Shown here: piece by piece, positions 11,084 to 57,800 of the stretch
How the letters are laid out: each line of letters starts with the position of its first letter
Position numbering within the stretch: the stretch's first letter is position 1
Source: Sminthopsis crassicaudata
Taxonomy: Eukaryota
DNA: 64,000 nucleotides
Assembly (NCBI RefSeq): GCF_048593235.1
Contig: NC_133619.1
Span: 649,428,558-649,492,557 of the forward strand
Direction: 5' to 3'
Made by a program: the position numbers and the translations under genes
Notes under the pieces: generated by a model
Told to the model about the DNA's origin: nothing
Databases searched by the model: none
What the model saw: only the letters and a program-made list of their open reading frames with translations

Positions 11084-14000
11084 ACATGGGGCTGACAATC
11101 TCATCAGACACTGTGATATCTCTAACATGGGGCTGATAATCCCATCAGACACTGTGATATCTGTAACATGGGGCTGACAATCCCATCAGACACTGTGATA
11201 TCTCTAACATGGGGCTGATAATCCCATCAGACACTGTGATATCTGTAACATGGGGCTGATAATCCCATCAGACACTGTGATATCTGTAACATGGGGCTGA
11301 TAATCCCATCAGACATTGTGATATCTGTAACATGGGGCTGATAATCCCATCAGACACTGTGATATCTCTAACATGGGGCTGATAATCCCATCAGACATTG
11401 TGATATCTGTAACATGGGGCTGACAATCCCATCAGACACTATGATATCTGTAACATGGGGCTGACAATCTCATCAAACACTGTGATATCTGTAACATGGG
11501 GCTGACAATACCATCAGACACTGTGATATCTGTAACATGGGGCTGATAATCCCATCAGACATTGTGATATCTGTAACATGGGGCTGACAATCCCATCAGA
11601 CACTATGATATCTGTAACATGGGGCTGACAATCTCATCAAACACTGTGATATCTGTAACATGGGGCTGACAATACCATCAGACACTGTGATATCTGTAAC
11701 ATGGGGCTGATAATCCCATCAGACATTGTGATATCTGTAACATGGGGCTGACAATCCCATCAGACACTATGATATCTGTAACATGGGGCTGACAATCTCA
11801 TCAAACACAGGGATATATGTAACATGGGGCTGATAATCCCATCAGACACTGTGATATCTGTAACATGGGGCTGATAATCCCATCAGACATTGTGATATCT
11901 GTAACATGGGGCTGACAATCCCATCAGACACTATGATATCTGTAACATGGGGCTGACAATCTCATCAAACACAGGGATATCTGTAACATGGGGCTGATAA
12001 TCCCATCAGACACTGTGATATCTCTAACATGGGGCTGACAATCCCATCAGACACTGTGATATCTGTAACATGGGGCTGATAATCCCATCAGACACAGGGA
12101 TATCTGTAACATGGGGCTGACAATCTCATCAAACACAGGGATATCTGTAACATGGGGCTGACAATCTCATCAAACACAGGGATATCTGTAACATGGGGCT
12201 GACAATCCCATCAGACATTGTGATATCTGTAACATGGGGCTGACAATCCCATCAGACACTATGATATCTGTAACATGGGGCTGACAATCTCATCAAACAC
12301 AGGGATATCTGTAACATGGGGCTGATAATCCCATCAGACATTGTGATATCTGTAACATGGGGCTGACAATCCCATCAGACACTATGATATCTGTAACATG
12401 GGGCTGACAATCTCATCAAACACAGGGATATATGTAACATGGGGCTGATAATCCCATCAGACACTGTGATATCTGTAACATGGGGCTGATAATCCCATCA
12501 GACATTGTGATATCTGTAACATGGGGCTGATAATCCCATCAGACACTGTGATATCTGTAACATGGGGCTGATAATCCCATCAGACACTGTGATATCTGTA
12601 ACATGGGGCTGACAATCTCATCAAACACAGGGATATCTGTAACATGGGGCTGACAATCCCATCAGACACTATGATATCTGTAACATGGGGCTGACAATCC
12701 CATCAGACACTGTGATATCTGTAACATGGGGCTGATAATCCCATCAGACACTATGATATCTGTAACATGGGGCTGACAATCTCATCAAACACAGGGATAT
12801 ATGTAACATGGGGCTGATAATCCCATCAGACACTGTGATATCTGTAACATGGGGCTGATAATCCCATCAGACACTGTGATATCTGTAACATGGGGCTGAT
12901 AATCCCATCAGACACTGTGATATCTGTAACATGGGGCTGATAATCCCATCAGACATTGTGATATCTGTAACATGGGGCTGATAATCCCATCAGACACTGT
13001 GATATCTGTAACATGGGGCTGACAATCTCATCAGACACAGGGATATCTGTAACATGGGGCTGACAATCTCATCAAACACAGGGATATCTGTAACATGGGG
13101 CTGACAATCCCATCAGACACTGTGATATCTGTAACATGGGGCTGACAATCCCATCAGACACTGTGATATCTGTAACATGGGGCTGACAATCCCATCAGAC
13201 ACTGTGATATCTGTAACATGGAGCTGACAATCCCATCAGACACTGTGATATCTGTAACATGGGGCTGATAATCCCATCAGACACTGTGATATCTCTAACA
13301 TGGGGCTGACAATCCCATCAGACACTGTGATATCTGTAACATGGGGCTGACAATCCCATCAGACATTGTGATATCTGTAACATGGGGCTGATAATCCCAT
13401 CAGACATTGTGATATCTGTAACATGGGGCTGACAATCCCATCAGACATTGTGATATCTGTAACATGGGGCTGACAATCCCATCAGACAATGTGATATCTG
13501 TAACATGGGGCTGACAATCCCATCAGACACTGTGATATCTGTAACATGGGGCTGACAATCCCATCAGACACTGTGATATCTCTAACATGGGGCTGATAAT
13601 CCCATCAGACACTGTGATATCGGTAACATGGGGCTGATAATCCCATCAGACACTGTGATATCTCTAACATGGGGCTGATAATGCCATCAGAAACTGTGAT
13701 ATCTGCAACATGGGGCTGATAATCCCATCAGACACAAGGATATCTGTAACACGGGGCTGCCAATCCCATCAGACACTGTGATATCTGTAACATGGGGCTG
13801 CCAATCCCATCAGACACTGTGATATCTGTAACATGGGGCTGACAATCCCATCAGACACTGTGATATCTCTAACATGGGGCTGATAATCCCATCAGACACT
13901 GTGATATCTGTAACATGGGACTGACAATCCCATCAGACACTGTGTTATCTCTAACATGGTGCTGATAATCCCATCAGACATTGTGATATCTGTAACATGG

Positions 14001-14590
14001 GGCTGACAATCCCATCAGACAATGTGTTATCTCTAACATGGGGCTGATAATCCCATCAGACACTGTGATATCTGTAGCATGGGGCTGACAATCCCATCAG
14101 ACACAGGGATGCCTGTAACATGGGGCTGACAATCCCATCAGACACTGTGATATCTGTAACATGGGGCTGATAATCCCATCAGACACTGTGATATCTGTAA
14201 CATGGGGCTGACAATCCCATCAGACACTGTGATATCTGTAACATGGGGCTGATAATCCCATCAGACACAAGGATATCTGTAACACGGGGCTGACAATCTC
14301 ATCAGACACTGTGATATCTGTAACATGGGGCTGACAATCCCATCAGACACTGTGATATCTGTAACATGGAGCTGATAATCCCATCAGACACTGTGATATC
14401 TGTAACATGGGGCTGACAATCCCATCAGACACTGTGATATCTGTAACATGGAGCTGACAATCCCATCAGACACTGTGATATCTGTAACATGGGGCTGATA
14501 ATCCCATCAGACACTGTGATATCTGTAACATGGGGCTGACAATCCCATCAGACACTGTGATATCTGTAACATGGGGCTGATAATCCCATC
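11084..14590. repeat. 41-bp minisatellite, about 85 copies visible, left edge in an assembly gap
   Basis: Unit ctgtaacatggggctga(t/c)aatcccatcagacactgtgatat repeated head-to-tail; N-gap at 10952-11083. Confidence 0.97.
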
Positions 14591-16439: not shown

Positions 16440-16923
16440 AGGGTAGCAAAGGTAGGAAAACGAGTGGACGTCCATCAGCTGGGGAATGGCTGAACAAGCT
16501 GTGGTACACGGAGGCCATGGAATATTACGGCTCTATAAAAAATGAGGAACAAGCGGATTAGACAAAGGACTGGAAAGATTTACATGAACTGATGCTGAGC
16601 GAAACAAGCAGAAGCAGAAATACATTGTACACAATAATAGCAACAATGTGCAATGATCAACTAGGAAAGGCCTGGTTCTTCTCAGCGGTGCAGTGATCCA
16701 AGGCTATCCCAATAGGCTTTGCATAGAAAATGTCATCTGCATCCAGAAAAAGATCTAAGGAGACTCTAAATATAAATCAACACACGCTTTGTTCACTTCT
16801 TTTTTCTGTTTTTTGTTTTTTAATCTCTCCCATGGTTTTTCCCATTTGCTCTGATTTTTCTCTCCCCACATATAAAAGTGTGTACTAAAAATAAATAAAA
16901 CTTAAAAAAAAAAAAAAAAAAAA
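16440..16923 (+). mobile_element. L1 3' end with poly(A)
   Basis: gtccatcagctggggaatggctgaacaagctgtggta..catgaactgatgctgag..aataaa, then an A-run. Confidence 0.85.
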
Positions 16924-22735: not shown

Positions 22736-25700
22736 TCAGGACTCCTTGGCCCCGGCGGCGGCGGCGGCTCCCAGCCTCTCAGCCTTGTGGATCAGACGGT
22801 GCTTCTTAAGGCCATACGTGTTGGAGAAGCCCTCCCCGCAGGCCGAGCAGCGGAAGGGCCGGCCGCCCTGGTGGGCGGCCAGGTGCTTGCGGAAGTAGCC
22901 GGGGTCCTTGAAGACCTTGAGGCAGGCTGGGCAGCGCAGCTCGGGCCGCGCGGGCTCGTGGGCCCGCTGGTGCCGCAGCACCGAGCTCAGGTAGAAGAAG
23001 GCCTTGCCACAGTGCTCGCAGCGGTAGGCTCGCTCGCCCAGGTGCAGCCGCTGGTGCTCCAGCAGGTTGGAGCGATAGCGGAAGGTCTTGCCACAGGCAC
23101 CGCAGCGCTGGGGCCGGGCCACGGCGTGCAGGCGGCGGTGCTCGGCCAGACTGGAGGACTGGGCGAAACGTTTGGCGCACACGGCGCACTTGAAGGCGCG
23201 CTCGCCCGTGTGCACCACGCGGTGCTGCCGCAGATACCAGGAGCGCAGGAAGCCTCGCCCGCAGACGCCGCAGCGGTAGGGCCGCTGCTCCGTGTGGCAG
23301 CGCTGGTGGCGCATCAGCAGTGCCGCCTCCCAGAAGCGCTTGCCGCACACGGGGCAGCGGAAGCCACGCTTCTGGCGGTGGCTGCGGCGGTGCAGGAGCA
23401 GGTCGTAGGCGCCGGCGAAGCTCTGGCCACACAGGCCGCAGCCCAGCGTCCGCCGCACCAGGTGCACGTACTTGTGGGTCACCAGCCCCAGGAAGTGCTT
23501 GAAGCTCTGGCCGCAAGTGGCACAGCTGAAGCGCTCGGGGCCCCCGGGGCTGGGCCCGGCCCCCGCCCCGACGCCCGTCCCTGACTCTTCCCCCGCGGCC
23601 CCGGCGGCCAAGGCCGCCACGGCCGCCCCCACCTCCCCGGCCAGCCCGTTGTCCAGGCCGGCGGCCGGGGTGTCGGGGCCGGGCCCGTCAGGGGCCGGGG
23701 GTGGCAGGAGACGCTCCGGGGCCGCCTGGTGGACCAGCTTGTGCCACATGAGGTTCTCGATGAAGCCGAAAGCCTTGCCGCAGGCATCGCAACCGTAAGG
23801 CTTCTCGGCCATATGCGCCTCCTTGTGGCTCATGACGTGGAAGAGGTCGGGGAAGTGCTCGCCGCAGTCTGAACAAGCGTAGCTGAGGCCCTCAGGGGGG
23901 GCGGCGCCGGCGGCAGCAGAGGCCTGGCCGGCCCCAGGACCCGTGGCCGGGGCCAGGCCGGCGGGGGCGGCCAGCGCGCAGGGTAGCTGCAGGCGGTGCA
24001 CCTGGCGGTGGCGCGTGAGGCTCTGCGGGTAGCCAAAGACCTTGCCGCAGAGCTCGCACTTGTAGGGCCGTTCTCTCGTGTGCACCACGTGGTGCTTGCT
24101 CAAGTGGAAGGACTCCCGGAAGCGCTTCCCGCACACAGGACACTGGTGGGGCTTCTCCCCCGTGTGGATCCGCTCGTGGCGCTTCAGCGTCTCCCGGCGC
24201 CCGAAGCCCCGGCCACAGATCCCGCAGCAGAAGGTTTTGCCTGGAGCGGGGCCCCCCGGCCCCACGGCACCCGCGCCCCCACCTCCCGCGGGGCCTCCCG
24301 CACCCCCCAACAGCAGCGGGTGGGCCCCCAGCAGCGGCACTGACACGGCCCCATATACCACAGCCGCAGCCGCCGCCGCTGCCGCGGCCGCCTTCTCTCC
24401 ACTGTCGCCCGGCGGGTCTGGGGGCAGGAGATAGGGCCCAGGGGGAAAGGTGGGGGGCGGGGCCGGAGTTGTTCCGTCCTTGGGGACCTCGGGGGCCGCG
24501 GCGGCTGCAGCGCCGTGGGCCGCCTTGTGGCGCAGCAGGCTTTGTGGGGCAGAGTAGGACTTGCCACACAGGTCGCAGGGATACTCAGGCCGGGGCACTG
24601 GGGCGCCGGCGGCAGCCGCATGGGCCGCCTGGTGCTTGAGGAGGTAAGCGGCGTCACGGAAGGCCTTCCCGCACACGCCGCAGGGCAGCCGCAGCAGGTC
24701 CGCCGAGTGCGTCTTCACGTGGCGCTTGAGGCTCTCGCGGCGGTTAAAGCTCTTGTTGCACACGGTGCAGGAGAAGGGTTTCTCCCCTGTGTGGATGATC
24801 TGGTGCTGGTGGAGGTGGCTGGGCTTCTTGAAGACTTTCCAGCACAGGGGGCAGGTGAAAGGGCCCTCGCCACCAGCGCCCGGAGCCCCCGGGGCCACTC
24901 CGGGAGGAGGGGGCCCGCTGTCCACGCCGGTGGAGGAGGCGGGGGCCAGGGGGGGCAGCGGCGGCGGCGGCGGAGCCTGCGGGGTCCCAGGCAGCGGCGG
25001 CGCGTCCTTATGGCAGCGGCGGTGGCGGATGAGGCTGGAGACGTGGTTGTAAGTCCGCCCACAGACGCCGCACTCGTAGGGCCGCTCCCCGGAGTGCACG
25101 AGCATGTGCTGCACCAGGTGCGAGGACTGCTTGAAGGACTTCTGGCAGACCCCGCAAGGGAAGCGCCTCTCCATCAGGTACTTCAGCCGGCGGAAGTAGC
25201 CCTTGTCGTCCTTGGCGCCCGCGCCCAGCTCCCCGCTTCCGGGAGCCCCCGGGGCCCCGGGCTGGGGCTGGGCAGGGGCCCCGGCGTGGCTGGCCCAGCC
25301 CCGGGCCCACCCGCCGTCCCGGGCCGCTTAAGGTTCCCAAAAAGGTGCTGGTGCCCAGAGAGGTCCACGATCCCCATTGTGGAGCGGGAAAGGCAGCATC
25401 GAAAAGGGGTGGGGGCGGAGGCGGGGGCGCCCCGAAGCCTGGGGGCAGAGCCGGCTCGGGCTTCTTGGCTGGGACGTGGAGGATGAGGACGACGAAGAGG
25501 ACGAGGAAGAGGAGGACGAGACGAAGACGAGGAGGACGACGAGGAGGGCGTCTCGGCTTTGGGCTTGAAGGCCGGTGGCGGTGGCGGGTAGTCGTACTGG
25601 GGTGGCGGGGGCTGGGGGGGGGCCTGGGGAGGCGGCCCTGGAGGGCAGGGCAGGGCCGCCACGGCTTTGGCGTGCTCACCGTACAGCTCCATGGGTTCGA

Positions 25701-26824: not shown

Positions 26825-27990
26825 GGATCTCCAAGCATGAAGACCTTCCTCCTCCTCTAGGGGAGCACTGAGATCTTCCTCTTCCTCTCTAAGGGAGGAT
26901 CTCCAAGCACTGAGACCTTCCTCCTCCTCTAGGGGAGCACTGAGACCTTCCTCCTTCTCTGTAAGGGAGGATCTCCAAGCACTGAGACCTTCCTCCTCCT
27001 CTAGGGGAGCATTGAGACCTTCCTCCTCCTCTAGGGGAGCACTGAGACCTTCCTCCTCCTCTAGGGGAGCACTGAGACCTTCCTCCTCCTCTAGGGGAGC
27101 ACTGAGACCTTCCTCCTCCTCTAGGGGAGCACTGAGACCTTCCTCCTCCTCTCTAGGGGAGCATAGAGACCTTCCTCTTCCTCTCTAAGGGAGGATCTCC
27201 AAGCACTGAGACCTTCCTCCTCCTCTCTAGGGGAGCATTGAGACCTTCCTCCTCCTCTGTAAGGGAGGATCTCCAAGCACTGAGACCTTCCTCCTCCTCT
27301 AGGGGAGGATCTCCAAGCGCTGAGACCTTCCTCCTCCTCTCTAGTGGAGCATTGAGACCTTCCTCCTCCTCTGTAAGGGAGGATCTCCAAGCGCCGAGAC
27401 CTCCCTCCCCCTCCCCTCTAGGGGAGGATCTCCAAGCACTGAGACCTCCCTCCCCCTCCCCTCTAGGGGAGCACTGAGACCTTCTTCCTCTCTAAGGGAG
27501 GATCTCCAAGCGCCGAGACCTCCCTCCCCCTCCCCTCTAGGGGAGGATCTCCAAGCACTGAGACCTCCCTCCCCCTCCCCTCTAGGGGAGCACTGAGACC
27601 TTCTTCCTCTCTAAGGGAGGATCTCCAAGCACTGAGACCTCCCTCCCCCTCCCCTCTAGGGGAGCACTGAGACCTTCCTCCTCCTCTAGGGGAGGATCTC
27701 CAAGCACTGAGACCTCCCTCCCCCTCCCCTCTAGGGGAGCACTGAGACCTTCTTCCTCTCTAAGGGAGGATCTCCAAGCACTGAGACCTCCCTCCCCCTC
27801 CCCTCTAGGGGAGGATCTCCAAGCGCCGAGACCTCCCTCCCCCTCCCCTCTAGGGGAGGATCTCCAAGCATGGAGACCTTCCTCCTCCTCTCTAGGGGAG
27901 CACTGAGACCTTCCTCCTCCTCTAGGGGAGGATCTCCAAGCACTGAGACCTCCCTCCCCCTCCCCTCTAGGGGAGGATCTCCAAGCGCAT
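26825..27990. repeat. Compound 30/41-bp minisatellite in ZNF865 intron 1
   Basis: Units ctctaggggagcactgagaccttcctcctc (30 bp) and ctctaagggaggatctccaagcactgagaccttcctcctc (about 41 bp), with ctccctccccctccc variants toward the right. Confidence 0.95.
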
Positions 27991-28900: not shown

Positions 28901-31302
28901 CCTGCGCACTAGGGCTAGCTTCTGCCTCTTCCCTTGGTCCCGCCCTCTAAGCCCCTCTCCTCGATCCCATCCCCTTGATCTGTCACCCTCACCCTTCTCT
29001 CTCCTCCCCCCGTGGCTTCCTTCTTATCTCAACTCCTCCTTTCAGGCCCCTGTCCTAGCTCCTTTGAATTCTGCCCCCTTATTTCCCACTCTTCCTTTCA
29101 ACCCCAAACCTGCCCTCCCCTCCCCTAAGTCCCACCCCTTCTCTAAGCCACGCCTCCGTCCTTCCTCCTCAGACCAGCCCCGGCTTCATAGACTCCACCC
29201 CAGAACCGCCTCCTCTCTAATCCCGCCTCTCATGCCCCTCCCCGTGGTCCCGCCCTCTCAGTGACTCCCACTTTCTCAGCTCCTCATCTGCCTTTCTCCA
29301 TCCCTCCCGGGGTGGAGGCCTCTAGGGGGCGCCATGAGCATAGAGCTTTGTGCCCGAAGTCTGAAGTTCCAGTGCATCCTGGGACACTTCTAGCAGCGTG
29401 ATCTGGGGCGAGCTGTGTGCCTCAGTTTCCTCATCTGGGAAATGGAGCTCCTGAGTTGTGAGGATCACATGACATAATTTAGCATAGCCTTTAGCACAAA
29501 GCCGGCCTTCTGCTGAGCTGCGAATGGGTCAGGAAGATACCAGTGGAGCTCAAATGCTGTTCCAGACACTTCCTGTGTTCTCGGCTGGCTCCGGTTTCCT
29601 CATATATAAAATGTGCTAGAGAAGTAAATGGCCGATCTCTCCGTATCTGTGCCAAGAAAGCCCAAATGGGGTCACGTAGAGTCAGGCAGAGAGTGCCATG
29701 TTAATGCCCGCAGCTCTGCTTATAGGTTGTCTCCCAGGCCCAGCTCTGGGTTTGAAGAATGAACTCTCCCTTCCTCCCATGGGCGGGGGTGTGTGTGATA
29801 AGATAGGAGGCCTCTTGGGTACAGATAAGAAAGAAGCTTGTTCATTCTGTGCCTACCTGGTGCCAGGCACTGTGCTAAGCTCTGGAGAGACAGAGGACAG
29901 CTCCTATCCTCCACGAGCTCACAATATGATGGAGAAAACAAGTAAAGGTATACAATCAAGTTAAAAACAGAATACATAGAAAGGACTTAAGGGAGGAAGG
30001 CCCTGGATTTAAGGGAGAAGACTTCCCGTAGAAGATGAGATTTTAGTTGGGACTTAAAGGAAGCCAGGTAGATCAGTAGTCAGAGTAGAGGAAGGAGCGC
30101 ATGCCAGGCCGGTGGAGTCAGAGATCATGCCCAGAGCTGAAATGGTGGTGGAGGAGGTACGGTGGTTCTTCATGGATCAGCCAAGAGGCCTGTGTCACTG
30201 GGATCCAAGGAAGAGACTAAAGTCTAAAGAGATCGGTAAAAGTGATTGAAGGTTATAGAGGGCTTTGAAGTCCAAACAGAGCATTAGGTATTTGGTAATG
30301 GAAGTAATAGGAACCCACTGGATTTTATTGAGTGGGAGACATGATCAGACGTGTCTGTGCTTTAGAAAAATCACTTTAATGACTAAATGAAGGATGGACT
30401 GGAATGGGGAGAGAATCAAGAAGGGAAGGTCTGCCAGTAGCTATTGCAGTTGTCCAGGTGAGGTGAAGAAGGTTTCTGCCAGGACGGAGGCAGTATCAGA
30501 GAAAAAAAGGGAACATGCTGGGAAATATTGCAGAGGTTAAACTGACAAGACTTTAGCCCCTTTTTGTGGGAGTTAAGGATGATGTCTAAGTTGGAAGCCA
30601 GAGAGACTGGGAGGATAGAGAGGTGGAGGATTAGAAGGAAAGATAATGAATTCTGTTTTGGACATGTTTAGTTTATGATGTCTGAAACTATTTCCACTCA
30701 TATGAAAGAGTGTTCCAAATCACTACTGATCAGAGAAATGCAAATTAATACAACTCTGAGATACCACTACACACCTGTCAGATTGGCTAAGATGACTGGA
30801 ACAAATAACGATGAATGTTGGAGGGGATGTGGGGAAACTGGGACACTGATGCATTGTTGGTGGAGTTGTGAAAGAATCCAACCATTCTGGAGAGCAATCT
30901 GGAATTATGCCCAAAAAGTTATCAAAATGTGCATACCCTTTGATCCAGCAGTGCTACTACTGGGCTTATATCCCAGAGAAATATTAAAGAGCTGAAAGGG
31001 ACCTGTGTGTACCAAAATGTTTGTGGCAGCTCTTTTTGTAGTGGCTAGAAACTGGAAGATAAATGGATGTCCATCACTTGGAGATTGGTTGGGCAAATTG
31101 TGGTATATGAAGGGTATGGAATATTATTGCTCTGTAAGAAATGACCAGCAGGAGGAATACAGAGAGGCTTGGAGAGACTTACATCAACTGATACTAAGTG
31201 AAACATGCAGAACCTGAAGATCACTATACACTTCAACAACAATACTGTATGAGGATATATTCTGATGGAAGTGGATATCTTCAACATAGAGAAGATCTAA
31301 TC

Positions 31303-32122
31303 TGTTAGGATTACTAGGTGAGAACTCAGGTTGTCTGGACAGTGACAAGGTGAGAATTCACCTAGTAATCCTAACATCTCAACCTGAATTCTCACCTTGT
31401 CACTGTCCAGACAACCTGAGTTCTCACCTAGTAATCCTAACATCAACACGGGAAACCTCACCCGGCCCAGACACGGAAAGGNNNNNNNNNNNNNNNNNNN
31501 NNNNNNNNNNNNNNNNNNNNNNNNNNNNNNNNNNNNNNNNNNNNNNNNNNNNNNNNNNNNNNNNNNNNNNNNNNNNNNNNNNNNNNNNNNNNNNNNNNNN
31601 NNNNNNNNNNNNNNNNNNNNNNNNNNNNNNNNNNNNNNNNNNNNNNNNNNNNNNNNNNNNNNNNNNNNNNNNNNNNNNNNNNNNNNNNNNNNNNNNNNNN
31701 NNNNNNNNNNNNNNNNNNNNNNNNNNNNNNNNNNNNNNNNNNNNNNNNNNNNNNNNNNNNNNNNNNNNNNNNNNNNNNNNNNNNNNNNNNNNNNNNNNNN
31801 NNNNNNNNNNNNNNNNNNNNNNNNNNNNNNNNNNNNNNNNNNNNNNNNNNNNNNNNNNNNNNNNNNNNNNNNNNNNNNNNNNNNNNNNNNNNNNNNNNNN
31901 NNNNNNNNNNNNNNNNNNNNNNNNNNNNNNNNNNNNNNNNNNNNNNNNNNNNNNNNNNNNNNNNNNNNNNNNNNNNNNNNNNNNNNNNNNNNNNNNNNNN
32001 NNNNNNNNNNNNNNNNNNNNNNNNNNNNNNNNNNNNNNNNNNNNNNNNNNNNNNNNNNNNNNNNNNTAGGTGAGAACTCAGGTTGTCCAGACAACCTGAG
32101 TTCTCACCTAGTAATCCTAACA
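31303..32122. mobile_element. TG...CA-terminated, inverted-ended LTR-derived chimeric insertion with 6-bp TSD
   Basis: TSD ctaatc at 31297-31302 and 32123-32128, with the L1 3' UTR continuing across it. Left end tgttaggattactaggtgagaactcaggttgtc; right end its reverse complement. 31303-31360 is perfectly inverted at 31385-31442. Centre is a gap (31482-32066). Confidence 0.75.
31443..31481 (+). rRNA. 18S rRNA fragment (non-functional, captured in the insertion; runs into the gap)
   Basis: tcaacacgggaaacctcacccggcccagacacggaaagg is 37/39 identical to recalled human 18S (tcaacacgggaaacctcacccggcccggacacggacagg), starting at about human U1248. Confidence 0.85.
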
Positions 32123-33789
32123 CTAATCCAATTCCAATCAATCAATGATGGACAGAATCAACTACACCCAGAGAAGGAACACTAGGAAATGAGTGTAAAC
32201 TGTGAGCGTTTTTTGTTTTTCTTCCCTGGTTATTTTTACCTTCCAAATCCAATTCTTCCTTTGCAACAATAACAACAACAACAAAATTCAGTTCTGCACA
32301 CATATATTGTAACAAGGATATACTATAACATATTTAACATGTATGGGACTGCCTGCCATCTAGGGGAAGGAGTGGAGGGAAGGAGGGGAAAATTCAGAAC
32401 AGAAGAGAGTACAAGGGATAATGTTGTAAAAAATTACCCATGCATATGTATTGTCAAAAATGTTATAATTATAAAACTAATTTTAAAAATTAAAAAAAAA
32501 AGTTTATGATGTTTACTGGATACCCTGTTCTAGATGTCTGAAAGGTAATTGATGATTCAAGATTGGAAGTCAACAGACTGTTGGAGGCAGAAAAAGAAGA
32601 TTTAAAAATCATCAGCACAGAGATGATAATGAAATTCATGGAAGCTGAGGAGATGCCAAGTAGGGAAGAGCCACAGAAGAGGATTCAGGACAGAGCCCTG
32701 AGGGACATCTACGGCTTAGAGGGTATGATTTGTAGGAGAACGCAGCAAAGCAATCAGAGGAGCACTTAGAGAGATAGGTGGAGAAGCAGAAGAGAGGACC
32801 CTAAAAACCTAGAGAAGAGAGTATTAAAAGGGAGAGAGTGATTAGTAGTGCTAAAGGTTACAGGGAGGTCAAGGAAAATGAGGCCATTGGATCTGGCAAC
32901 TAAAAGGTCATTGGTAACTCTGGAGAGAGCACTTTCTGAGGAATTATAGGGTTGGAAACCAGATTGTAAAGGGTTAAGAAAGTGAGAGGGCAGAAAGTGG
33001 AAGCACCTAGTGTAGATAGCCTTATCCAGGAACTTAGCTACAAAGCCACAAAAGATATAAAGAGATATATGGCCATAGACAGCAGGGATACAGGAATCAA
33101 GTAAAAGTTTTTTTTTTAGGATGAAGAAGTCATGGGCATATTAAGGAATAAGCCAATAGAGAGGGAGATTGAAGATACATGATAGAGAAATGAGGTGCAA
33201 TCTCTTGAAGAAAAGGGGATGAAATGTGCTATAGAGGTTAGCCTTGGTAAAGACTAAAGCCATTTTGTTATGTAACATTAGGAGAGAAGAAGGAAAGAGT
33301 GGCAGATGGCACCTTGAGTGATAGGAGATAAAAAAAAGTGGAAGGAATATGTGGGAGAATGGCCTAAATTTTTAAATAAAATTGGAGGCAGTGCCTCAGC
33401 TGAGAGGGAGGGGAAAGAGGGAATTTTCAGAGATGTCAGGAAAAATGAGGTTTAGAAGAGGCAAAATGTGAGATAAGGTACAAAGCATTTCAGGAAGATT
33501 TTGTGTGTGTATGTGTGTACGTGTACGTGTACGTGTATGTGAGAGAGAGAGAGGGGTGGGGGTGGGGAGGATACACTTTCTCCTGGAGGCAGCCCAGAAG
33601 GCTTCCTGGATAAGGCATCATCTGAGCTGACCCTAGGAAATTTCCCTGTCCCCCAATATGGATCAGGAGAGGTAAAAATTAGAAGCAAAACATTTTTGAG
33701 GATGGACAGGGTAGAAGAAGAGAGAGTGGGATAAAGGAGAGAGAAGAATAGAATGGAGGGAAATTCATAATAATCATAACGGTGAAAAA

Positions 33790-34920
33790 AAATTTACATC
33801 TCTGATAAAGACCTCATTTCTCAAACATATAGAAAACCGAGTCAAATTTGTAGAAATAAGAGATATTCCTTAATTGTTAAATGATCAAAGGATATGAATT
33901 GGTGCTGTCCAGATGTGGTAAACTATATAAAGTCCTGAAAAAATGTGCCAAGTCACTCTGGATTAGAGAAATGCAAATTAATAGAGCTCTGAGGTCCTAC
34001 TTCACACCTGTCAGATTGGCTAATATGACAGAAAGGAAAATGATAAATGTCAGTGGAGGTGTGGGAAAATTGAGATGCACTATTGGTGAAGCACCATTCC
34101 ACAATTATGTTGAGTAATTTGGAACAAAGAGCTATAAAATCATGTATACTTTTTGATCAAGCAATACCACTCTTAGGTCTGTATCCCAAAGAGATTTTTT
34201 TAAAAAAGGAAAAAGAGAAATATTTATTGCAACTCTTTTAGTGGTGGGTAAAGAATTAGAAATCGAGGGGATGCCCATCAATTGGAGAATCGCTGAACAA
34301 GTGATGCTATATGAATGGAATGGAATTATTATGGTATAAGAAATGATGAGCTAGATGCAGAAAAACCTGGAAAGACTTCCATGAACTGTTGCAAAGTGAA
34401 ATAGGCAGAACATTAGCCCTAGTAATAGCAACATTGTAACAATCAGCAACTCTGAACTGTAGCATTGTAATTACCAGCATCTCTAACTGCGAACATTGTA
34501 ACAATCAACAACTCTGAACAGTAGCATTATAGTTACCAGCATCTCTAACTAGGAACATTGTAACAATCAACAACTTTGAACAACAACTTTGTAACAGTCA
34601 TCAACTCTAAATAATAACATTGTAACAATATCAATTTAAACAACTCTTCTCAGCAATGTAATGATCCAAAGGACTTATGATGAAAAATACTCTCTGTCCC
34701 CAGAGAAAGAAATGGTGGAGTCTGAATGCAAATTGAATGATATATATTCTTTGTTACTTTATTTTTCTTGTATTTTCTCTTACAGCATGACTAACATGGA
34801 CATAGATTTTACATAATGGTACATTATAACTTGTATCAGTGTTTGCCTTCTCAATAAGGCAGCAGGGGATAAAGAGAATTTGGAATTCGAAACTTTTTAA
34901 ATAGAAAATTAAACTTGTTT
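33790..34920 (+). mobile_element. Old L1 3' fragments with an internal 62-bp tandem duplication
   Basis: tctgataaagacctcatttc, gattagagaaatgcaaatta and gatgcccatcaattggaga motifs; period-62 repeat at 34431-34640. Confidence 0.75.
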
Positions 34921-37381: not shown

Positions 37382-38287
37382 TCATTCTGGCTTTTCTTCC
37401 AGATCCTCTGGGGCTGCCCAGGGAGCCTCTGGACTAGGGGGTCGCCCGGGCTCCTCCTCTGGGTCTCGAGGAGCAGGGTCCAAGCTCGGGGACTTCTCTA
37501 GGTCTTCCCCAGGACCCCCCTGAGCAGGGTCCGGGCTGGGAGACAGCTCTGGGACCATGGCCTCCAGCCAGGGTGGGTCCATGCCAGGGCCTGCGAGGGA
37601 GCTGGGAGAATCTGGGGGCGGTGGGTGTTTGCGACGGGCATGTCGCCGTAGGGTGTTGCCCTCAGTGAAGCGAAGCCTGCAGATGGGGCACTGGTAGGGC
37701 CGCTCGCCCGAATGCACACGGCCGTGGTGGGCCAACTCCCCGGCTTCACGGAAACGCCGTGGGCAGAGGGCACAGTGGAAGGGCCGCAGGCCGGCGTGGA
37801 TGTTCCGGTGCCGCCGCAGGTGACTGGCCCGCTTGAAGGCCTTGCCACAGGCTGGGCAGGTGTGCGGCTTGAGTTCTGAGTGAGAGATGCGGTGCCGTTC
37901 CAGGTCTGAGAGGTAGGGGAAGGCACGAAGGCAGACAGGACAGAAGTGTGGGGCCCGCCGGGCCCGGGACCCCCCGCCCTCCTCACCTGCCTGGGGCACG
38001 GTGTATGGGACACCCTGGGCATCAATCAACAAGACACCCCCTCCATCCTCAGCCTCCACCCCATCGGGTGGCCCTGGGGCCTCCGGGGCTTCCCCTGCCG
38101 TAGAGCCTCGGGGCCCGCCCCGTTTGCGGGTGGCCGGGGAGAACGTCTGGCTCGAGGAGGCGTCAGCGGAGGAGCCGGCCCGCCCCACAGGGGGGCGGCG
38201 GCGACGGAGGCGCACCCCGGGGGTATCGGCCGGTGGGCTGGAGTGCTCTGCCTCCTTGGCTGCTGGCTCTGGGCTGGAAGGGTCCAT
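37382..38287 (-). CDS. ZNF524: Zinc finger protein 524 (301 aa, four C2H2 fingers)
   Basis: [12 protein letters not shown]; [77 protein letters not shown], matching recalled human ZNF524. Acceptor gcctag| at 38322/38321. Confidence 0.93.
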
Positions 38288-39079
38288 CGGGTGCTGGGGA
38301 TTTGGGGCCCGTCCACAGGACCTAGGCTGGCGGAGGGAGAAAGGAGGCAGTAGTCAGAGTCAGCCGGAGGGCAGCAGAGGCACGGATCTGGGAGAGGGAT
38401 CCTCAATGCGGGGCTCAGACGAGACCTTGCCTCTGGAGGGGCTGCTAAGGGAGCAGCATTCTGAGGCAGGGAATCATAAGGGAGATTCTACAGATTGGAA
38501 ACTGAGGCACACGGTAGCGGACAAGAGAGAAGGAACCAAAAGGCCAGAAAGCTGGGGGCCAGGCTGGGAAGGACGGAGTCCAAACAATTTGGAGAAAAGG
38601 TTCCAGAGTCCAGAGTAGCAAGGGAGGATGTGGGACTAGATTTGGAGAAAGAGCCAGAACCAGGCTGGAGGAGGAAAAGGAGAAGGACCCAATGGGGAGG
38701 CCAGAAGCCTCGATCGCTGGAGAAGTGACCTGACTGGGAGAAGGATGGGTGAGAAGGAGAGAAGGGACAGCTGGGGGACACAGAGGCTCCAGCACCAGCC
38801 CCGGAGGCAGAGCAGAGTTCTGACACCTGCTAAGCGTGACACTGGCCAAGTCATTTCATCGCAACTGCCCCCCCAAAATAAGAGGGAATAAGATTGGGGG
38901 CAAGGGAGGACAGAGGGTGCAAGAGGAGAAAGCAACCAGGTTTGGGAAGTAAAGACAAGATCAAGGGGAACAGATCAAACCTCCAGAGTCCGGGGGATGT
39001 GGGGCTGTTATTTGGAGGTGAGAAAAAAAACCAGGTAGACTTTGGGGAGAAGGAGCCAGACTGGGGGAGGGGGAACTGA

Positions 39080-43918: not shown

Positions 43919-45789
43919 ATGGAGGACAGCGCTGTGGATGGACCCCTCCCTGCGGCCGGCCCGGCCCCGGCCCCGGCGCCGGCCCCTCCCGTGGCTCCCC
44001 GGGTGCCCTTCCACTGCAGCGAGTGCGGGAAGAGCTTCCGCTACCGCTCCGATCTGCGGCGCCACTTCGCCCGGCACACGGCTCTCAAGCCCCACGCCTG
44101 CCCCCGCTGTGGCAAGGGCTTCAAGCACAGCTTCAACCTGGCCAATCACCTGCGCTCTCACACGGGCGAGCGGCCCTACCGCTGCTCCGCCTGCCCCAAG
44201 GGCTTCCGCGACTCCACCGGTCTCCTCCACCACCAGGTCAGGGGCCTGCTCCCCGTCCGCCCTCCTTCTGAGGCAGAGTGGGGGCCGTCGGGCCGGGTCT
44301 ACATGTGGGAATTCTCCCTTCTTCCTCCCCTCTGCAGGTGGTCCACACGGGTGAAAAGCCTTATTGCTGCCTGATCTGTGAGCTCCGCTTCTCCTCCCGC
44401 TCCAGCTTGGGCCGTCATCTGAAGCGCCAGCACCGAGGGATGTCCCCCCCGACACCCGCAGGCCTGGGCCCCTCCGGCTTAGTGCCCGGCCTCCTTCCTA
44501 CTCTGGGGCCCCCGGTCCCAGGCCCGTCCTGTAGCGCGTGTTCCGACGAGGGTCCCTGCGTGGCCTGTGGGGGTGGCCCGGAGCCCCCGGGCCCCGGGCC
44601 AGGCTCCTGGGTGGGGGGCTGGGGGACCGGGGGGACCGGCCCGTTTGTTTGTGGGGCCTGTGGCCGATGCTTCCTGGCGGGGGCTGAGCTGGCAGCCCAC
44701 TGGGCTGCTCACACAGATGTGAAACCCTTCAAGTGCCCCCGCTGTGAGCGCGACTTTAATGCCCCGGCCCTGTTGGAGCGCCACAAGCTCACCCATGATC
44801 TCCAAGGATCCTGGCCTGGGCCTGAGGGCAGGGAGGCTGGATTGGAGGCACCTGAGGATCTCCAGGAGCTCCCCTCTGAGGAGCCTCAGGAGTTCTCAGA
44901 GGAGCCCCAAGAGTTCCCCTCAGAGGATCTCCAGGAGTTTCCTTCCGAGGAACCCCAGGAGTTCCCAGAAGGGCCCCAGGAGTTCCCAGAGGGGCCCCAG
45001 GAGTTCCTTTCTGAGGAACCCCAAGAGTTCATCTCAGAGGAACCCCCAGAGTTCATCTCAGAGGATGTCCAGGAGTTCCCTGAAGAGGATCTTAGTGAGT
45101 TCCCCACTGAGGAGCCCCAAGAGTTCCCTCTGGAGGTAGCCCCAGAGGTATCCCAGGAGGCCCCCGTGGAGGAAGCTGAGGAGGTATCCCATGAGATACC
45201 TGTGGAGGTGCCCATAGAGGTATGCCAGGAGATACCCGGGGAGGAGGCCCCGTTCCCTGTGGCCGCTGAGCTGGGCGAGGCCTCGGAGGAGACCCTGTAC
45301 CAGTGCGACTGCGGGACCTTCTTTGCTTCCGCAGCAGCCTTGGCTGCCCACCTGGATGCCCACTCGGGCCCAGCTTCCTGTGTCTGTGGGGTGTGCGGGG
45401 CGGTCTATGGGGCAGTGGCGGCCCTGGAGGAGCACCACCACGGGAGCCACGGGGCCGGGCCTTCTCCGGGGGGGCCCCCCGCCGGCTCCGTCCGCACCCC
45501 CGCGGCTCTGGCGGCGGCGGCGGCCGGGAAGAAGGTGTTCAGCTGCTCCGAGTGTGAGAAGCTCTTCCGTTCCCCGAGGGACCTGGAGAGGCATGTGCTG
45601 GTCCACACTGGGGAGAAGCCCTTCCCGTGCCTGGAGTGCGGGAAGTTCTTCCGGCACGAGTGCTACCTCAAGCGGCACCGGCTGCTGCACGGGCCCGAGC
45701 GGCCCTTCCCCTGCCACGTCTGTGGCAAGGGTTTCATCACACTTAGCAACCTCTCCCGCCACCTGAAGCTTCACCGAGGGATGGACTGA
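43919..45789 (+). CDS. FIZ1: FLT3-interacting zinc finger 1 (589 aa; coding exons 43919-44236 and 44338-45789)
   Basis: PRVPFHCSECGKSFRYRSDLRRHFARH..GLLHHQ|VVHTGEKPYCC..SRHLKLHRGMD-stop matches recalled FIZ1. In-frame 101-nt GT-AG intron; ideal Kozak gccATGg. Confidence 0.95.
44854..45246 (+). repeat. In-frame 21/24-nt coding tandem repeat in FIZ1 (acidic EEPQEFPS units)
   Basis: 12 units of E(E/D/G)xxE(F/L)x(x) plus 4-5 diverged units, 131 aa in total. Confidence 0.95.
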
Positions 45790-54866: not shown

Positions 54867-57800
54867 ATGGAGAACGGGGCCCAAGAGAGCCTGGAAGACG
54901 GGGACGTGGAGGTGAGCGGCGTGGGGGTGTAAAGGGGAGGCAGAGACCATAAACCAAAGAAATGGAGAAGAGGAAGGATCGGGTGGGAGGAAACAAGACA
55001 GAGGCATCTGCAGAAAGAAATGCGCTGGGCTGGGAAAAGGAGAAAGATGGGCTGGATCGAGGGAGAGAAACACATGTGGAGTCACTGAGACAGAAGGAAC
55101 TGGACATGGAGAAGGGGGCAGAGACAGAAACTCGGGAGAAAAGCTGGCAGTGGGGGGTGGCCAGGCTGTTCCTGGGGGGACCCCGGCCTGAAGCGGTGCT
55201 GTTCTCCAAGGCTCGGGAACAGGTGGGCCAGTCCCTCAGAGTGACTCACTGTGAGTCACCAACCCCACCCTGGGACCGTGACCCAATTGTTGACCCTTGG
55301 TCTCCCCTATAGGATCCCCTCATCCCTCCAAAGGGCGCTCTAGCTTGATAGAACGAAAAAAACTTCCCAAATAATTAGCCGGGTCCGCATTTCAGCAGCT
55401 ACCTGGGAGGGAGGGAGTTTCCCCTGACTGGAAGGGGAGGACTCCATTAGAGGGATATAAGTGGAGCTTGCTAGCCTCCCTGGGAAATCTGAAATTCTGT
55501 GACCTCCCCCTCCCTCCCTTCCACCTTAGATCCTCTGGCTTGAAATCTCCCAGCACCCAGAACCATGGAGTCTTATCTAAAAGCGCTTAGAGATTGAGCT
55601 TTCCTTAACTCTACAGATTTAGAAACCGAGGCCCACAGTGTCAGGTTACCCAGAATCATTGACAGGTTACTCAGGCTCTCTCCTTCCCTCTTACTCTTGC
55701 TGTCTTTCTCACTCTCTTTTCTGTTTCTTGTCTCTGCCTCTGTCTCTGTCTTGTCTCTTTCTCTTTGTCTCGGTGTCTTGTCTCTCTGTCTCTCTCTCTC
55801 TGTGTCTCTGTCTTGTCTCTGTCTCTGGGTTTCTCTCTCTTTGCCTCTGTCTTGTCTCTCTGTCTCTGTCTCTCTCTTTCTGTGTCTCTGTCTCTGTCTT
55901 GTCTCTCTCTGCCTCTATCTCTGTTTTGTCTCTGTCTCTGTCTCTGTATCTCTCTCTGNNNNNNNNNNNNNNNNNNNNNNNNNNNNNNNNNNNNNNNNNN
56001 NNNNNNNNNNNNNNNNNNNNNNNNNNNNNNNNNNNNNNNNNNNNNNNNNNNNNNNNNNNNNNNNNNNNNNNNNNNNNNNNNNNNNNNNNNNNNNNNNNNN
56101 NNNNNNNNNNNNNNNNNNNNNNNNNNNNNNNNNNNNNNNNNNNNNNNNNNNNNNNNNNNNNNNNNNNNNNNNNNNNNNNNNNNNNNNNNNNNNNNNNNNN
56201 NNNNNNNNNNNNNNNNNNNNNNNNNNNNACACAGCGTTGGCCCTTCAGCGTCTGGTTGACCTCACAGCCAGAAGGGTGACTCAAGTCCGGAGTCTGAGGT
56301 CCTGCTACCGCCTGGTCCAGGAGTTGGGGGCCGGCACCTATGGCCGTGTCCTCCTGGCCCGACCCCGTCGAGGGGGTAAGCGGGGGTCCGTGGTGTGGGG
56401 GAGACGTCTCAGTTCCCAGGAGCCCATGATTCTCCCCATGGGGACGGGGACACAGGATACCCAGCACAGGGCCCAAGGTTCTGGCCTCCTCCCAGCTGTC
56501 CTGGGGGGCTGGCCCCTCGCTGCACAGAGGAGGAAGTCAGGATCCAGAGCAAAGGTGGGCCAGGAGACAATGGCCTCAGCGCTGGAGGCCAGACCCAGGC
56601 CCCTTCATCCCTGCTCTCCTGGTGTCCTCCTTTCCCAAGGTCCCCCTGTCGCCCTGAAGCTGCTCCCTCGGACCTCTGCGTCCCGGGCCACATTCCTCCG
56701 GGAGTTCTGCGTGGGTCGCTGTGTCTCCTCGCACCCGGGCCTGCTCAGCACCCTGGCCCCCCCGCTGCAGAGCCCCCGCCACTACGCCTTTGCCCAGGAG
56801 CTCGCACCATGCGGCGATCTCAGTGCAATGTTGGAGGAGAGGGTGAGGTCCCAAACCGGCCCCGGAGCGGGGGAAGCGGCTCAGGGGCCGGGGCTCCGGG
56901 GGCCCGGAGCTTGGGGTGCGGGGCTGGGGGGGAGAGCGGGCCCGGTCTTGGCCGGCTGCAGGCCAAGAAGAGGCTCAGAGACCGTATTGGAGTCACCGAG
57001 ACGGAGCCGGGGTCCGGGGCTCCATCAGGAGCAGGGCTGGGGCTGGCGGGAGGCTGGGAAGGGACCGGGCCGGGGAGCTGGTGGGGGGCAGCGGCCGCTG
57101 AGACTTGGGGGCTGTTCGTGGCAGAGGCTCGGAGCGCGGGCCCTGGGGGCTGGAAGGGAGGCCCGTTCATGGAAGCTTTGGGCAGCGTTTGCTGGGAGAT
57201 CTCACCAGCCCCGGAGCAGCCCCTGGGCTCTCTCGGACGGGGGTCCCAGAAGGGAAGTGCTTGCTGGCGTCCGGAGCCACATGCCCGCTCCAGTCTCCCT
57301 GACCTTATTTCCCACACTTTGTCCACTGTGCATCAGGGCTACCCTCAAGCTGCCCTGGCTCTGGCCACTCTGGGGGGCCTGGGCTCGGCCACTCTGGGGG
57401 CCCCGGGCTGCCCTGGCTCTGGCCACTCTGGGGGTCCTGGGCTCGGCCGCTCTGGGGGCCCCGGGCTGCCCTGGCTCTGGCCACTCTGGGGGGCCTGGGC
57501 TCGGCCGCTCTGGGGGCCCCGGGCTGCCCTGGCTCTGGCCACTCTGGGGGTCCTGGGCTCGGCCGCTCTGGGGGCCCCAGGCTGCCCTGGCTCTGGCCAC
57601 TCTGGGGGGCCTGGGCTCGGCCACTCTGGGGGCCCCGGGCTGCCCTGGCTCTGGCCACTCTGGGGGCCCCGGGCTGCCCTGGCTCTGGCCACTCTGGGGG
57701 TCCTGGGCTCGGCCGCTCTGGGGGCCCCGGGCTGCCCTGGCTCTGGCCACTCTGGGGGGCCTGGGCTCGGCCGCTCTGGGGGCCCCGGGCTGCCCTGGCT

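What the first reader, a model, noticed from the sequence alone, without database searches (positions are those of the whole stretch)
31303..32122. Integrated element with two identical inverted ends built from snap-backs of one LTR terminus
Seen: TG...CA termini and a 6-bp TSD, but the right end is the reverse complement of the left end rather than a different LTR end. Left: 58 nt of terminus, fold-back via tca/tga microhomology to regenerate ..cctaaca (31376), then ga plus a 64-nt inverted copy (31379-31442). Right: fold-back at the natural tgtc-tg-gaca hairpin, giving 21-bp visible arms around a 2-nt loop (32067-32110). Established: retroviral integrase needs CA-3' ends and class II ERVs make 6-bp TSDs. 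I recall this terminus as the start of a dasyurid LTR family (unverified). Inference: an aberrant reverse-transcription product made of short plus-strand starts, snap-backs and end-to-end jumps, with two U3 att sites, that integrase still inserted. Alternative: an undescribed foldback/MITE-like family with TG..CA TIRs that captures cellular RNA.
Basis: partly seen in the sequence, partly recalled or inferred. Interest (0 to 1): 0.82.

Follow-up and report, generated by a model that had tools for sequence, protein, structure and literature searches.

The report
Retrovirus-ended insertion carrying stalled 18S cDNA
A mammalian genome holds a small insertion that looks like a botched retroviral copying reaction: short starts of one viral end, folded back and joined, enclose a DNA copy of ribosomal RNA that breaks off exactly at a chemically modified base known to stop reverse transcriptase.

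Summary
The anatomy is confirmed. An 820-bp insertion (585 N) has TG..CA ends, the same terminus inverted at both ends (39/39 visible), an exact 6-bp target duplication and two fold-backs. It sits in the 3' UTR of an L1 whose own target duplication brackets it.

New here: 31443-31481 is 18S rRNA (Rfam E=1.5e-4; published primer 19/19). Its boundary lies exactly at m1acp3-pseudouridine 1248, a known reverse-transcriptase stop. Both internal terminus copies run on into TC rather than host flank, so they formed before integration. The gap length fits the rest of 18S to about its 3' end.

Best model (0.7): inside an ERV particle, three short plus-strand starts were made. Two snapped back; one of these then copied 18S rRNA and stalled at the modified base. 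The pieces were joined 3'-end to 3'-end, and integrase inserted the product through two identical U3 ends.

Not verified: that the terminus is an LTR (no Dfam or genome access), read support, copy number, gap content. It is probably a one-off, non-replicating fossil; a recurrent class is not excluded.

The parts
31297..31302 (+). left copy of 6-bp target-site duplication (CTAATC)
31303..31360 (+). piece A: first 58 nt of the terminus (putative U3 start), read from the left outer end
   Evidence: 58/58 identical to piece B
31361..31376 (+). piece A fold-back: complement of terminus nt 16 to 1, primed by nt 58 pairing with nt 17
   Evidence: junction; MFE of the 58-nt strand pairs 58 with 17; marginal stability
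31377..31378 (+). TC beyond the internal CA; inferred complement of the unprocessed 2-nt end
   Evidence: same TC follows the second internal CA; the host flanks give GATTAG and CTAATC instead
31379..31442 (-). piece B: 64 nt of the terminus, with an imperfect internal direct repeat of 32-nt period; free 3' end at 31379
31443..31481 (+). 18S rRNA sequence, sense on plus; first base T = U1248 (m1acp3-pseudouridine), second base C = RT stop position; the TC is shared with the inferred 2-nt end
   Evidence: Rfam RF01960 model 1200-1238/1831, E=1.5e-4, 20.2 bits; published 18S primer 19/19; modification context; RT stop
31482..32066 (.). 585-N assembly gap; predicted to hold about 570 nt of 3' 18S plus about 14 nt finishing fold-back C
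   Evidence: 585-14=571 against 593 Rfam consensus positions 3' of the match; content inferred, not seen
32067..32083 (-). piece C fold-back copy (visible part), primed by nt 39 pairing with nt 30
32084..32122 (-). piece C: first 39 nt of the same terminus, read from the right outer end
   Evidence: 39/39 identical to A and B
32123..32128 (+). right copy of 6-bp target-site duplication
30684..32501 (+). host: 5'-truncated L1 (broken ORF2 C-terminus, 3' UTR, A-run) with its own 14-bp duplication (13/14) at 30670-30683 and 32501-32514; the element sits in its 3' UTR
   Evidence: (L1 ORF2p, E=1.9e-39 and 5.8e-16)

Best explanation
A single germ-line insertion made by the reverse transcriptase and integrase of an endogenous retrovirus or LTR retrotransposon from abortive products, not from its genome. 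Three short plus strands, all starting at the same U3 end with two extra bases, came off the template. Piece A (58 nt) folded back and copied itself to its own 5' end. Piece B (about 64 nt) stayed linear. Piece C (39 nt) folded back, copied itself, jumped onto co-packaged 18S rRNA at or near its 3' end, and copied it until m1acp3-pseudouridine 1248 stopped RT. The free 3' ends were then joined end to end through 0-2 nt of pairing (A to B, AB to C) and filled in. That gave a linear duplex with a U3-type end on each side. Integrase removed two bases after each CA and inserted it with a 6-bp stagger into an old L1 3' UTR. SHOWN in sequence: the pieces, junctions, polarity, TSD, 18S identity and boundary, and the non-host TC. 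INFERRED: LTR/U3 identity, the 2-nt overhang, three separate molecules, order of joining, the enzymes, the gap content. No PBS, R/U5 or coding sequence is visible in the 235 sequenced bases, so it is probably dead on arrival.
For: (1) The 18S boundary is at the modified base. Window 31443 begins T-CAACACG; the site is GAC-psi-CAACACG (yeast 1191 = human 1248), and primer extension stops one base 3' of it (yeast 1192). Rough post-hoc chance is 0.001-0.003, or about 0.009 if a UC dinucleotide is required for joining. (2) The cDNA polarity fits priming from the right terminus: the antisense strand is the one that begins at 32122. (3) Both fold-backs have the natural arm outermost, as for strands that start at each end. 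(4) 2 of 2 internal CA ends are followed by TC; neither host flank reads so. Integrase removes a dinucleotide after CA. (5) The TSD is an exact 6 bp; the host L1's own TSD lies on both sides; the flanks are colinear with a paralogous L1 once 6-7 nt are removed. (6) The gap size is within 22 nt of the remaining 18S model length. (7) Precedents for single steps: 2-nt 3'-end clamping by all RTs tested, repeated plus-strand initiation with displaced dead-end products in Ty3, reverse transcription of packaged host RNAs.
Against: The terminus was not matched to any LTR: no Dfam or genome access, 0 hits in supplements of 3 papers, no other copy in 64 kb. 585 of 820 bases are N, and no reads were seen. 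The Rfam hit is below the gathering score (20.2 vs 50) and appeared only when the 39 nt were given alone; two wider scans found nothing. The snap-back hairpins are weak. The 58-nt fold is -5.2 kcal/mol, z=-0.79, 5% of the ensemble. The 39-to-30 register is not the MFE and has a 2-nt loop. 6 of 40 prefix lengths have a paired 3' end. The second TC is also 18S sequence, so it is not independent of point 1. The in-vitro clamp needs an adjacent annealed strand, a geometry only approximated here. Ty3 recycling gives full strong-stop strands, not 40-65-nt ones. The packaging review passages seen name 5S, not 18S. Paralog colinearity fits 7 nt (35/61) slightly better than 6 (32/61).
Confidence: 0.7

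Rival explanations
1. Assembly or library artefact: an ordinary solo LTR or provirus end whose fold-backs are amplification chimeras or mis-walked k-mer paths, with rDNA reads pulled in at a contig end.
For: The feature flanks an N gap. Perfect inverted repeats and high-copy rDNA are hard for short-read assembly (established knowledge). The copies are 137/137 identical, which collapse could also give. No reads were seen.
Against: A fold-back on integrated DNA would run into host flank (GATTAG or CTAATC); both run into TC. Genomic rDNA has no boundary at U1248, and genomic library making has no RT step (established knowledge). The right junction restores the TSD, and the host L1's own TSD brackets both contigs. 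The other 2 gaps of the window show no fold-backs, only tandem or simple repeats.
Confidence: 0.12
2. Two events: a palindromic LTR-end remnant inserted by integrase, and later an L1-mediated 18S retrocopy, 5'-truncated at the modified base, that landed inside it.
For: 5'-truncated 18S/28S retropseudogenes made by L1 exist. An RT stop at U1248 does not say which RT. The 3' end of the 18S piece is hidden in the gap.
Against: The 18S 5' junction falls exactly at an internal terminus and shares its TC; a random later insertion would hit that point about once in 200 positions (rough estimate from the visible length). The site does not resemble the T-rich L1 endonuclease motif (recalled). The gap leaves little room for a tail plus a TSD if 18S runs to its end.
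Confidence: 0.07
3. A member of an undescribed foldback/MITE-like DNA transposon family with TG..CA terminal inverted repeats that captures host sequence.
For: 39-bp perfect terminal inverted repeats, TG..CA ends, a TSD and internal terminus copies.
Against: Cut-and-paste elements have no RT step, so a boundary at the RT stop is unexplained. Internal copies carry a non-host 2-nt extension. No second copy in 64 kb. TG..CA transposons that I recall (Ginger, IS3, Mu) make 3-5-bp TSDs; this is recalled, not tested.
Confidence: 0.05
4. Post-integration rearrangement of a normal LTR by replication template switching or break repair, patched with an rRNA cDNA.
For: Template switching during replication makes local inverted copies (search listing; abstracts' first lines only).
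Against: It would have to rebuild a U3-type CA end exactly against the right TSD copy, and add TC rather than host flank after both internal ends.
Confidence: 0.03

Closest known systems
Retroviral/LTR-retrotransposon integrase insertion (provirus, solo LTR)
   Same: TG..CA ends, short fixed TSD, signs of dinucleotide trimming (PMC2615046, passages). Class II ERVs are the most frequent RT-coding ERVs in the Tasmanian devil genome (PMC4408412, passages), and a class II clade expanded in dasyurids (PMC11334065, passages).
   Different: Both ends are the same terminus in inverted orientation; there is no second LTR end, no direct-repeat LTR, and no PBS or coding sequence in the visible part; at most 64 nt of viral-type sequence is used.
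LTR-mediated retrocopies (Tan et al. 2016, PMC5131818; abstract and start of introduction seen)
   Same: A host RNA copy flanked by LTR-element sequence, with microsimilarity at the fusion point.
   Different: There the flanks are the 5' and 3' parts of a discontinuous retrotransposon. Here they are inverted hairpins of one end, the RNA is rRNA, and its copy ends at a modified base.
L1-made rRNA and tailless retropseudogenes (PMC5322556, passages)
   Same: A reverse-transcribed, 5'-truncated rRNA piece in the genome.
   Different: The outer junctions are integrase-like, not target-primed. The word 'modif' does not occur in that paper's main text.
RT 3'-end clamping (PMC3035444, abstract and passages) and Ty plus-strand primer recycling (PMC5371799, passages)
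   Same: Joining through 2-nt terminal pairing; repeated plus-strand starts from one primer with displaced products.
   Different: These are in-vitro or yeast observations. The substrates differ in geometry and length, and neither passage set describes an integrated two-U3 product.
Copy-back/snap-back defective genomes of RNA viruses and AAV; DIRS-1 elements with inverted terminal repeats (all recalled, no call)
   Same: One terminus duplicated in inverted form at both ends by polymerase fold-back.
   Different: Here there is an integrase-type TSD and a host rRNA copy; DIRS elements make no TSD and use a tyrosine recombinase (recalled).

Membership tests
Retroviral integrase product | 5'-TG ... 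CA-3' at both outer junctions | tested here: met
Retroviral integrase product | Short exact TSD with no loss of host sequence | tested here: met
   6 bp; flanks colinear with a paralogous L1 within 1 nt
Retroviral integrase product | Two bases removed after CA | tested here: inconclusive
   2 of 2 internal ends carry TC that the 2 outer ends lack; the parent element's sequence before TG was not seen
Provirus / solo LTR | Two different LTR ends (U3 left, U5 right), LTRs as direct repeats | tested here: not met
   the right end is the reverse complement of the left end, 39/39
Provirus / solo LTR | Terminus matches an annotated LTR family | not testable with these tools
   no Dfam/Repbase or eukaryotic genome; supplement searches of 3 papers gave 0 hits
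Provirus / solo LTR | PBS, PPT, gag-pol | tested here: inconclusive
   all 235 visible bases are assigned to terminus copies, junction bases or 18S; 585 N unseen
18S rRNA-derived cDNA | Match to eukaryotic SSU rRNA | tested here: met
   RF01960 E=1.5e-4, ungapped 39/39 model positions, below gathering score; primer 19/19
18S rRNA-derived cDNA | Boundary at an RT-blocking RNA modification | tested here: met
   position 31443 = U1248 equivalent
LTR-mediated retrocopy (Tan 2016) | Host RNA copy between LTR-element sequence with junction microsimilarity | tested here: met
   one visible junction, 1-2 nt shared; the other junction is in the gap
LTR-mediated retrocopy (Tan 2016) | Flanks are the 5' and 3' parts of one discontinuous retrotransposon | tested here: not met
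   both flanks are the same end, inverted
L1 (TPRT) retropseudogene | Endonuclease-type site and tail or target homology at the outer junctions | tested here: not met
   outer ends are TG..CA with CTAATC and no A-tail; the site motif is recalled
MITE / foldback DNA transposon | Terminal inverted repeats plus TSD | tested here: met
   39-bp perfect inverted ends
MITE / foldback DNA transposon | Multi-copy family sharing both ends and interior | not testable with these tools
   0 further copies in this 64-kb window; genome not available
DIRS-1-type retroelement | Inverted terminal repeats without TSD (recalled definition) | tested here: not met
   a 6-bp TSD is present

The most novel reading that the evidence does not exclude
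This is one member of a recurrent, unannotated class of host-RNA retrocopies. An ERV's abortive plus-strand starts fold into hairpins, prime cDNA synthesis on any co-packaged host RNA and cap both ends with integrase-ready U3 termini. Host RNA would then enter the germ line with no packaging signal, PBS, R, U5 or L1. The breakpoints of such copies would map RT-blocking RNA modifications as they stood in past germ cells.
Probability: 0.25. Interest if true: 0.88.

Novelty: new variant of a known kind. Interest (0 to 1): 0.72.

Why it matters
If real, one short locus preserves in a mammalian genome several steps known mostly from test tubes or yeast: repeated plus-strand initiation, self-priming snap-back, 3'-to-3' end joining by RT, an RT stop at the 18S hypermodification, and concerted integration of two identical U3 ends. 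It suggests that an ERV can insert a copy of a host RNA using only about 60 nt of one LTR end. Such elements would be annotated as LTR scraps plus rRNA and, being palindromic and rDNA-like, would tend to sit in assembly gaps, so they may be under-counted. No function for the host is suggested: it lies inside an old L1 between two zinc-finger-coding regions.

Tried and rejected
Rfam on 31425-31500 and on the whole window at gathering score: 0 hits; only the isolated 39 nt matched. blastn of the 18S piece and of the left terminus block against plasmids: no match. Full-text search with a 22-nt stretch: 0 papers; the 19-nt stretch gave 212, of which 2 were opened, both listing it as an 18S primer. 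Pfam did not recognise the L1 ORF2 pieces; the PDB sequence search did. Two of three paralogous L1 pieces in the window did not cover both sides of the insertion site above shuffle level. Folding energies do not single out the snap-back points against shuffles. Searches for a printed precedent (listings only) showed no integrated two-U3 element with an rRNA copy. That library lacks most older virology papers, so absence from print is not shown. bioRxiv 2025.02.02.635956 had no 18S passage. No tRNA genes in the window. The GTDB collection was not scanned, as it holds no eukaryotic genomes. bioRxiv supplements (e.g. the helix-31 alignment of 10.1101/840132) were not seen.

Full report
OBSERVATION. 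It starts TG, ends CA and is flanked by CTAATC at 31297-31302 and 32123-32128; the chance of that match is 2.4e-4 to 5e-4. Perfect inverted repeats link 31303-31360 with 31385-31442 (58 nt) and 31303-31341 with 32084-32122 (39 nt); 32067-32110 is a 21-bp hairpin with a 2-nt loop. Elsewhere in the window the longest comparable perfect inverted repeat is 14 nt. A 585-N gap covers 31482-32066, so 235 of 820 bases are visible. No further copy of the terminus lies in the 64 kb.

HOST SITE. The flanks are one 5'-truncated L1. Two open frames at 30672-30992 and 30996-31214 match the C-terminus of L1 ORF2p (E=1.9e-39 and 5.8e-16; Pfam found nothing). The L1 ends in an A-run at 32492-32501 and has its own 14-bp duplication, 13/14 identical, at 30670-30683 and 32501-32514. 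The two contigs on either side of the gap therefore belong to the same L1 insertion. One of three paralogous L1 pieces in the window (8656-8882) covers both sides of the site above shuffle level. The flanks are colinear with it when 6-7 nt are removed: 32/61 matches for 6, 35/61 for 7, 24/61 for none. Extrapolating from the ORF2 alignment gives a 3' UTR of roughly 415 nt, the length given for the Tasmanian devil L1-1_SH (PMC4408412, passages). That is weak support for a marsupial origin; the taxon was not otherwise tested.

ANATOMY. All visible terminus copies agree with the longest one, piece B (64 nt): 58/58, 19/19, 39/39 and 21/21. Piece A runs 58 nt from the left end and then continues with the complement of nt 16 to 1. 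Piece C runs 39 nt from the right end and then continues with the complement from nt 29 backwards. In both hairpins the natural arm is the outer one, as expected of strands that began at the terminus. The terminus has an imperfect internal repeat of 32-nt period. The 58-nt strand's minimum-energy fold pairs nt 58 with nt 17, exactly the observed junction. This is marginal: -5.2 against -5.1 kcal/mol, z=-0.79, and 6 of 40 prefix lengths have a paired 3' end. The 39-to-30 register is a 4-nt run with a 2-nt loop and is not the predicted fold. Both internal CA ends are followed by TC (31377-78, 31443-44), while copying through either outer junction would give GATTAG or CTAATC. The internal ends were therefore copied from DNA that was not yet attached to this site. 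Integrase removes a dinucleotide next to CA (PMC2615046, passages), so TC is read as the untrimmed end. That GA commonly precedes TG in class II ERVs is my recall and was not tested.

THE 18S PIECE. 31443-31481 aligns without gaps to Rfam SSU_rRNA_eukarya positions 1200-1238 of 1831 (E=1.5e-4, 20.2 bits, below the gathering score of 50). I chose those boundaries after recognising the sequence; two wider scans gave nothing. Independently, 31443-31461 occurs in 212 papers. In the 2 opened it is nt 2-20 of an 18S qPCR primer, whose first base differs from window 31442 (PMC7695316 and bioRxiv 2022.12.30.522259, passages). The site of the 18S hypermodification is GAC-psi-CAACACG, yeast 1191 and human 1248 (PMC3045603, passages). 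Its acp group blocks reverse transcriptase, with the stop at 1192 in yeast and an arrest in human RNA with AMV RT (PMC4872110, passages). It is conserved across eukaryotes and causes stalling and misincorporation (bioRxiv 840132, passages; supplements closed). The window's piece begins T-CAACACG, so its boundary is the modified base or the stop base; the shared TC makes these indistinguishable. A rough post-hoc chance is 0.001-0.003, or about 0.009 if a UC is demanded. The antisense strand is the one that starts at the right terminus. If fold-back C finishes with 14 more bases, 571 N remain, against 593 model positions 3' of the match. The gap is thus about the size of the rest of 18S. Gap sizes are estimates, so this is a prediction. 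One base (31469) differs from the Rfam consensus at a would-be CpG; whether this is decay, RT error or the species' own sequence is unknown.

MECHANISM (0.7). Three plus-strand starts with the same 5' end are needed. A cannot be the tail of one continuous strand from the right, because a snap-back onto B would run on into the 18S copy rather than stop at the terminus (inference). Repeated initiation from one polypurine primer, with displaced dead-end strands, is described for Ty3 (PMC5371799, passages), though for full strong-stop DNA. A and C self-prime. C jumps to 18S rRNA; packaged host RNAs can be reverse transcribed and recombined by retroviruses (PMC4997597, passages; 18S itself is not named in the passages shown). 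C stalls at the modified base. The 3' ends are joined through 0-2 nt: RTs of HIV-1, HIV-2, BIV, MLV, AMV and Tf1 clamp 2-nt 3' overlaps and the two cellular polymerases tested do not (PMC3035444, abstract and passages). That assay needs an adjacent annealed strand, which is only approximated here. The finished duplex has a U3-type end on each side, and integrase inserts it. The pieces and junctions are shown; the enzymes, the LTR identity, the order and the gap content are inferred.

RIVALS. Artefact (0.12): cannot be excluded without reads, but it does not explain TC instead of host flank, the boundary at an RNA modification, or both duplications; the window's other 2 gaps show no fold-backs. 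A later L1-made 18S copy inside a palindromic LTR remnant (0.07): such copies exist (PMC5322556, passages), but it would have had to land exactly on an internal terminus. A foldback/MITE family (0.05): has no RT step. Post-integration rearrangement (0.03): would need to rebuild an end against the TSD.

COMPARISON AND NOVELTY. It works like a retroviral integrase product but fails the test for provirus or solo LTR, since both ends are the same. It resembles LTR-mediated retrocopies (PMC5131818, abstract and start of introduction) but lacks their 5'-and-3' flank arrangement. The LTR family could not be named (one supplement cut, one file not searchable). Five literature searches (listings) showed no such integrated element, but the library lacks most older virology, where I recall reports of cell-derived inserts in unintegrated avian retroviral DNA. 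I rate it a new variant of a known kind, interest 0.72. The chance that it stands for a recurrent class is 0.25 (interest 0.88 if so).

Noticed in passing
window 31377-31383 and 31443-31447: Both acceptor strands (piece B and the 18S cDNA) end in the same five bases on the minus strand (GTTGA) before the next terminus copy; this may be chance or a joining preference.
   Followed up: partly
window 11084-14590: Tandem array of a 41-bp unit, about 85 copies at 93% match, starting at an N gap.
   Followed up: no
window 22739-25327 (-), 37385-38353 (-), 44272-45786 (+): Three C2H2 zinc-finger open frames; the third contains a 24-nt coding tandem repeat at 44854-45145. The insertion lies between the first two.
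   Followed up: partly
window 62718-63587 (+): Protein kinase domain exon (Pfam Pkinase E=9e-22); the sequence after the gap at 56229 also looks like a kinase N-lobe exon by eye (untested).
   Followed up: no
window 57349-58061: GC-rich 58-bp tandem repeat, 12 copies at 92%, lying in long open frames on both strands with no convincing Pfam match.
   Followed up: no
window 8198-8882, 16465-16656, 33936-34411: Three further, more diverged L1 3' fragments; the last is followed by a 31/62-bp tandem repeat at 34426-34629.
   Followed up: partly
window 26841-27988: Compound minisatellite built of 74-, 119- and 45-bp higher-order units.
   Followed up: no
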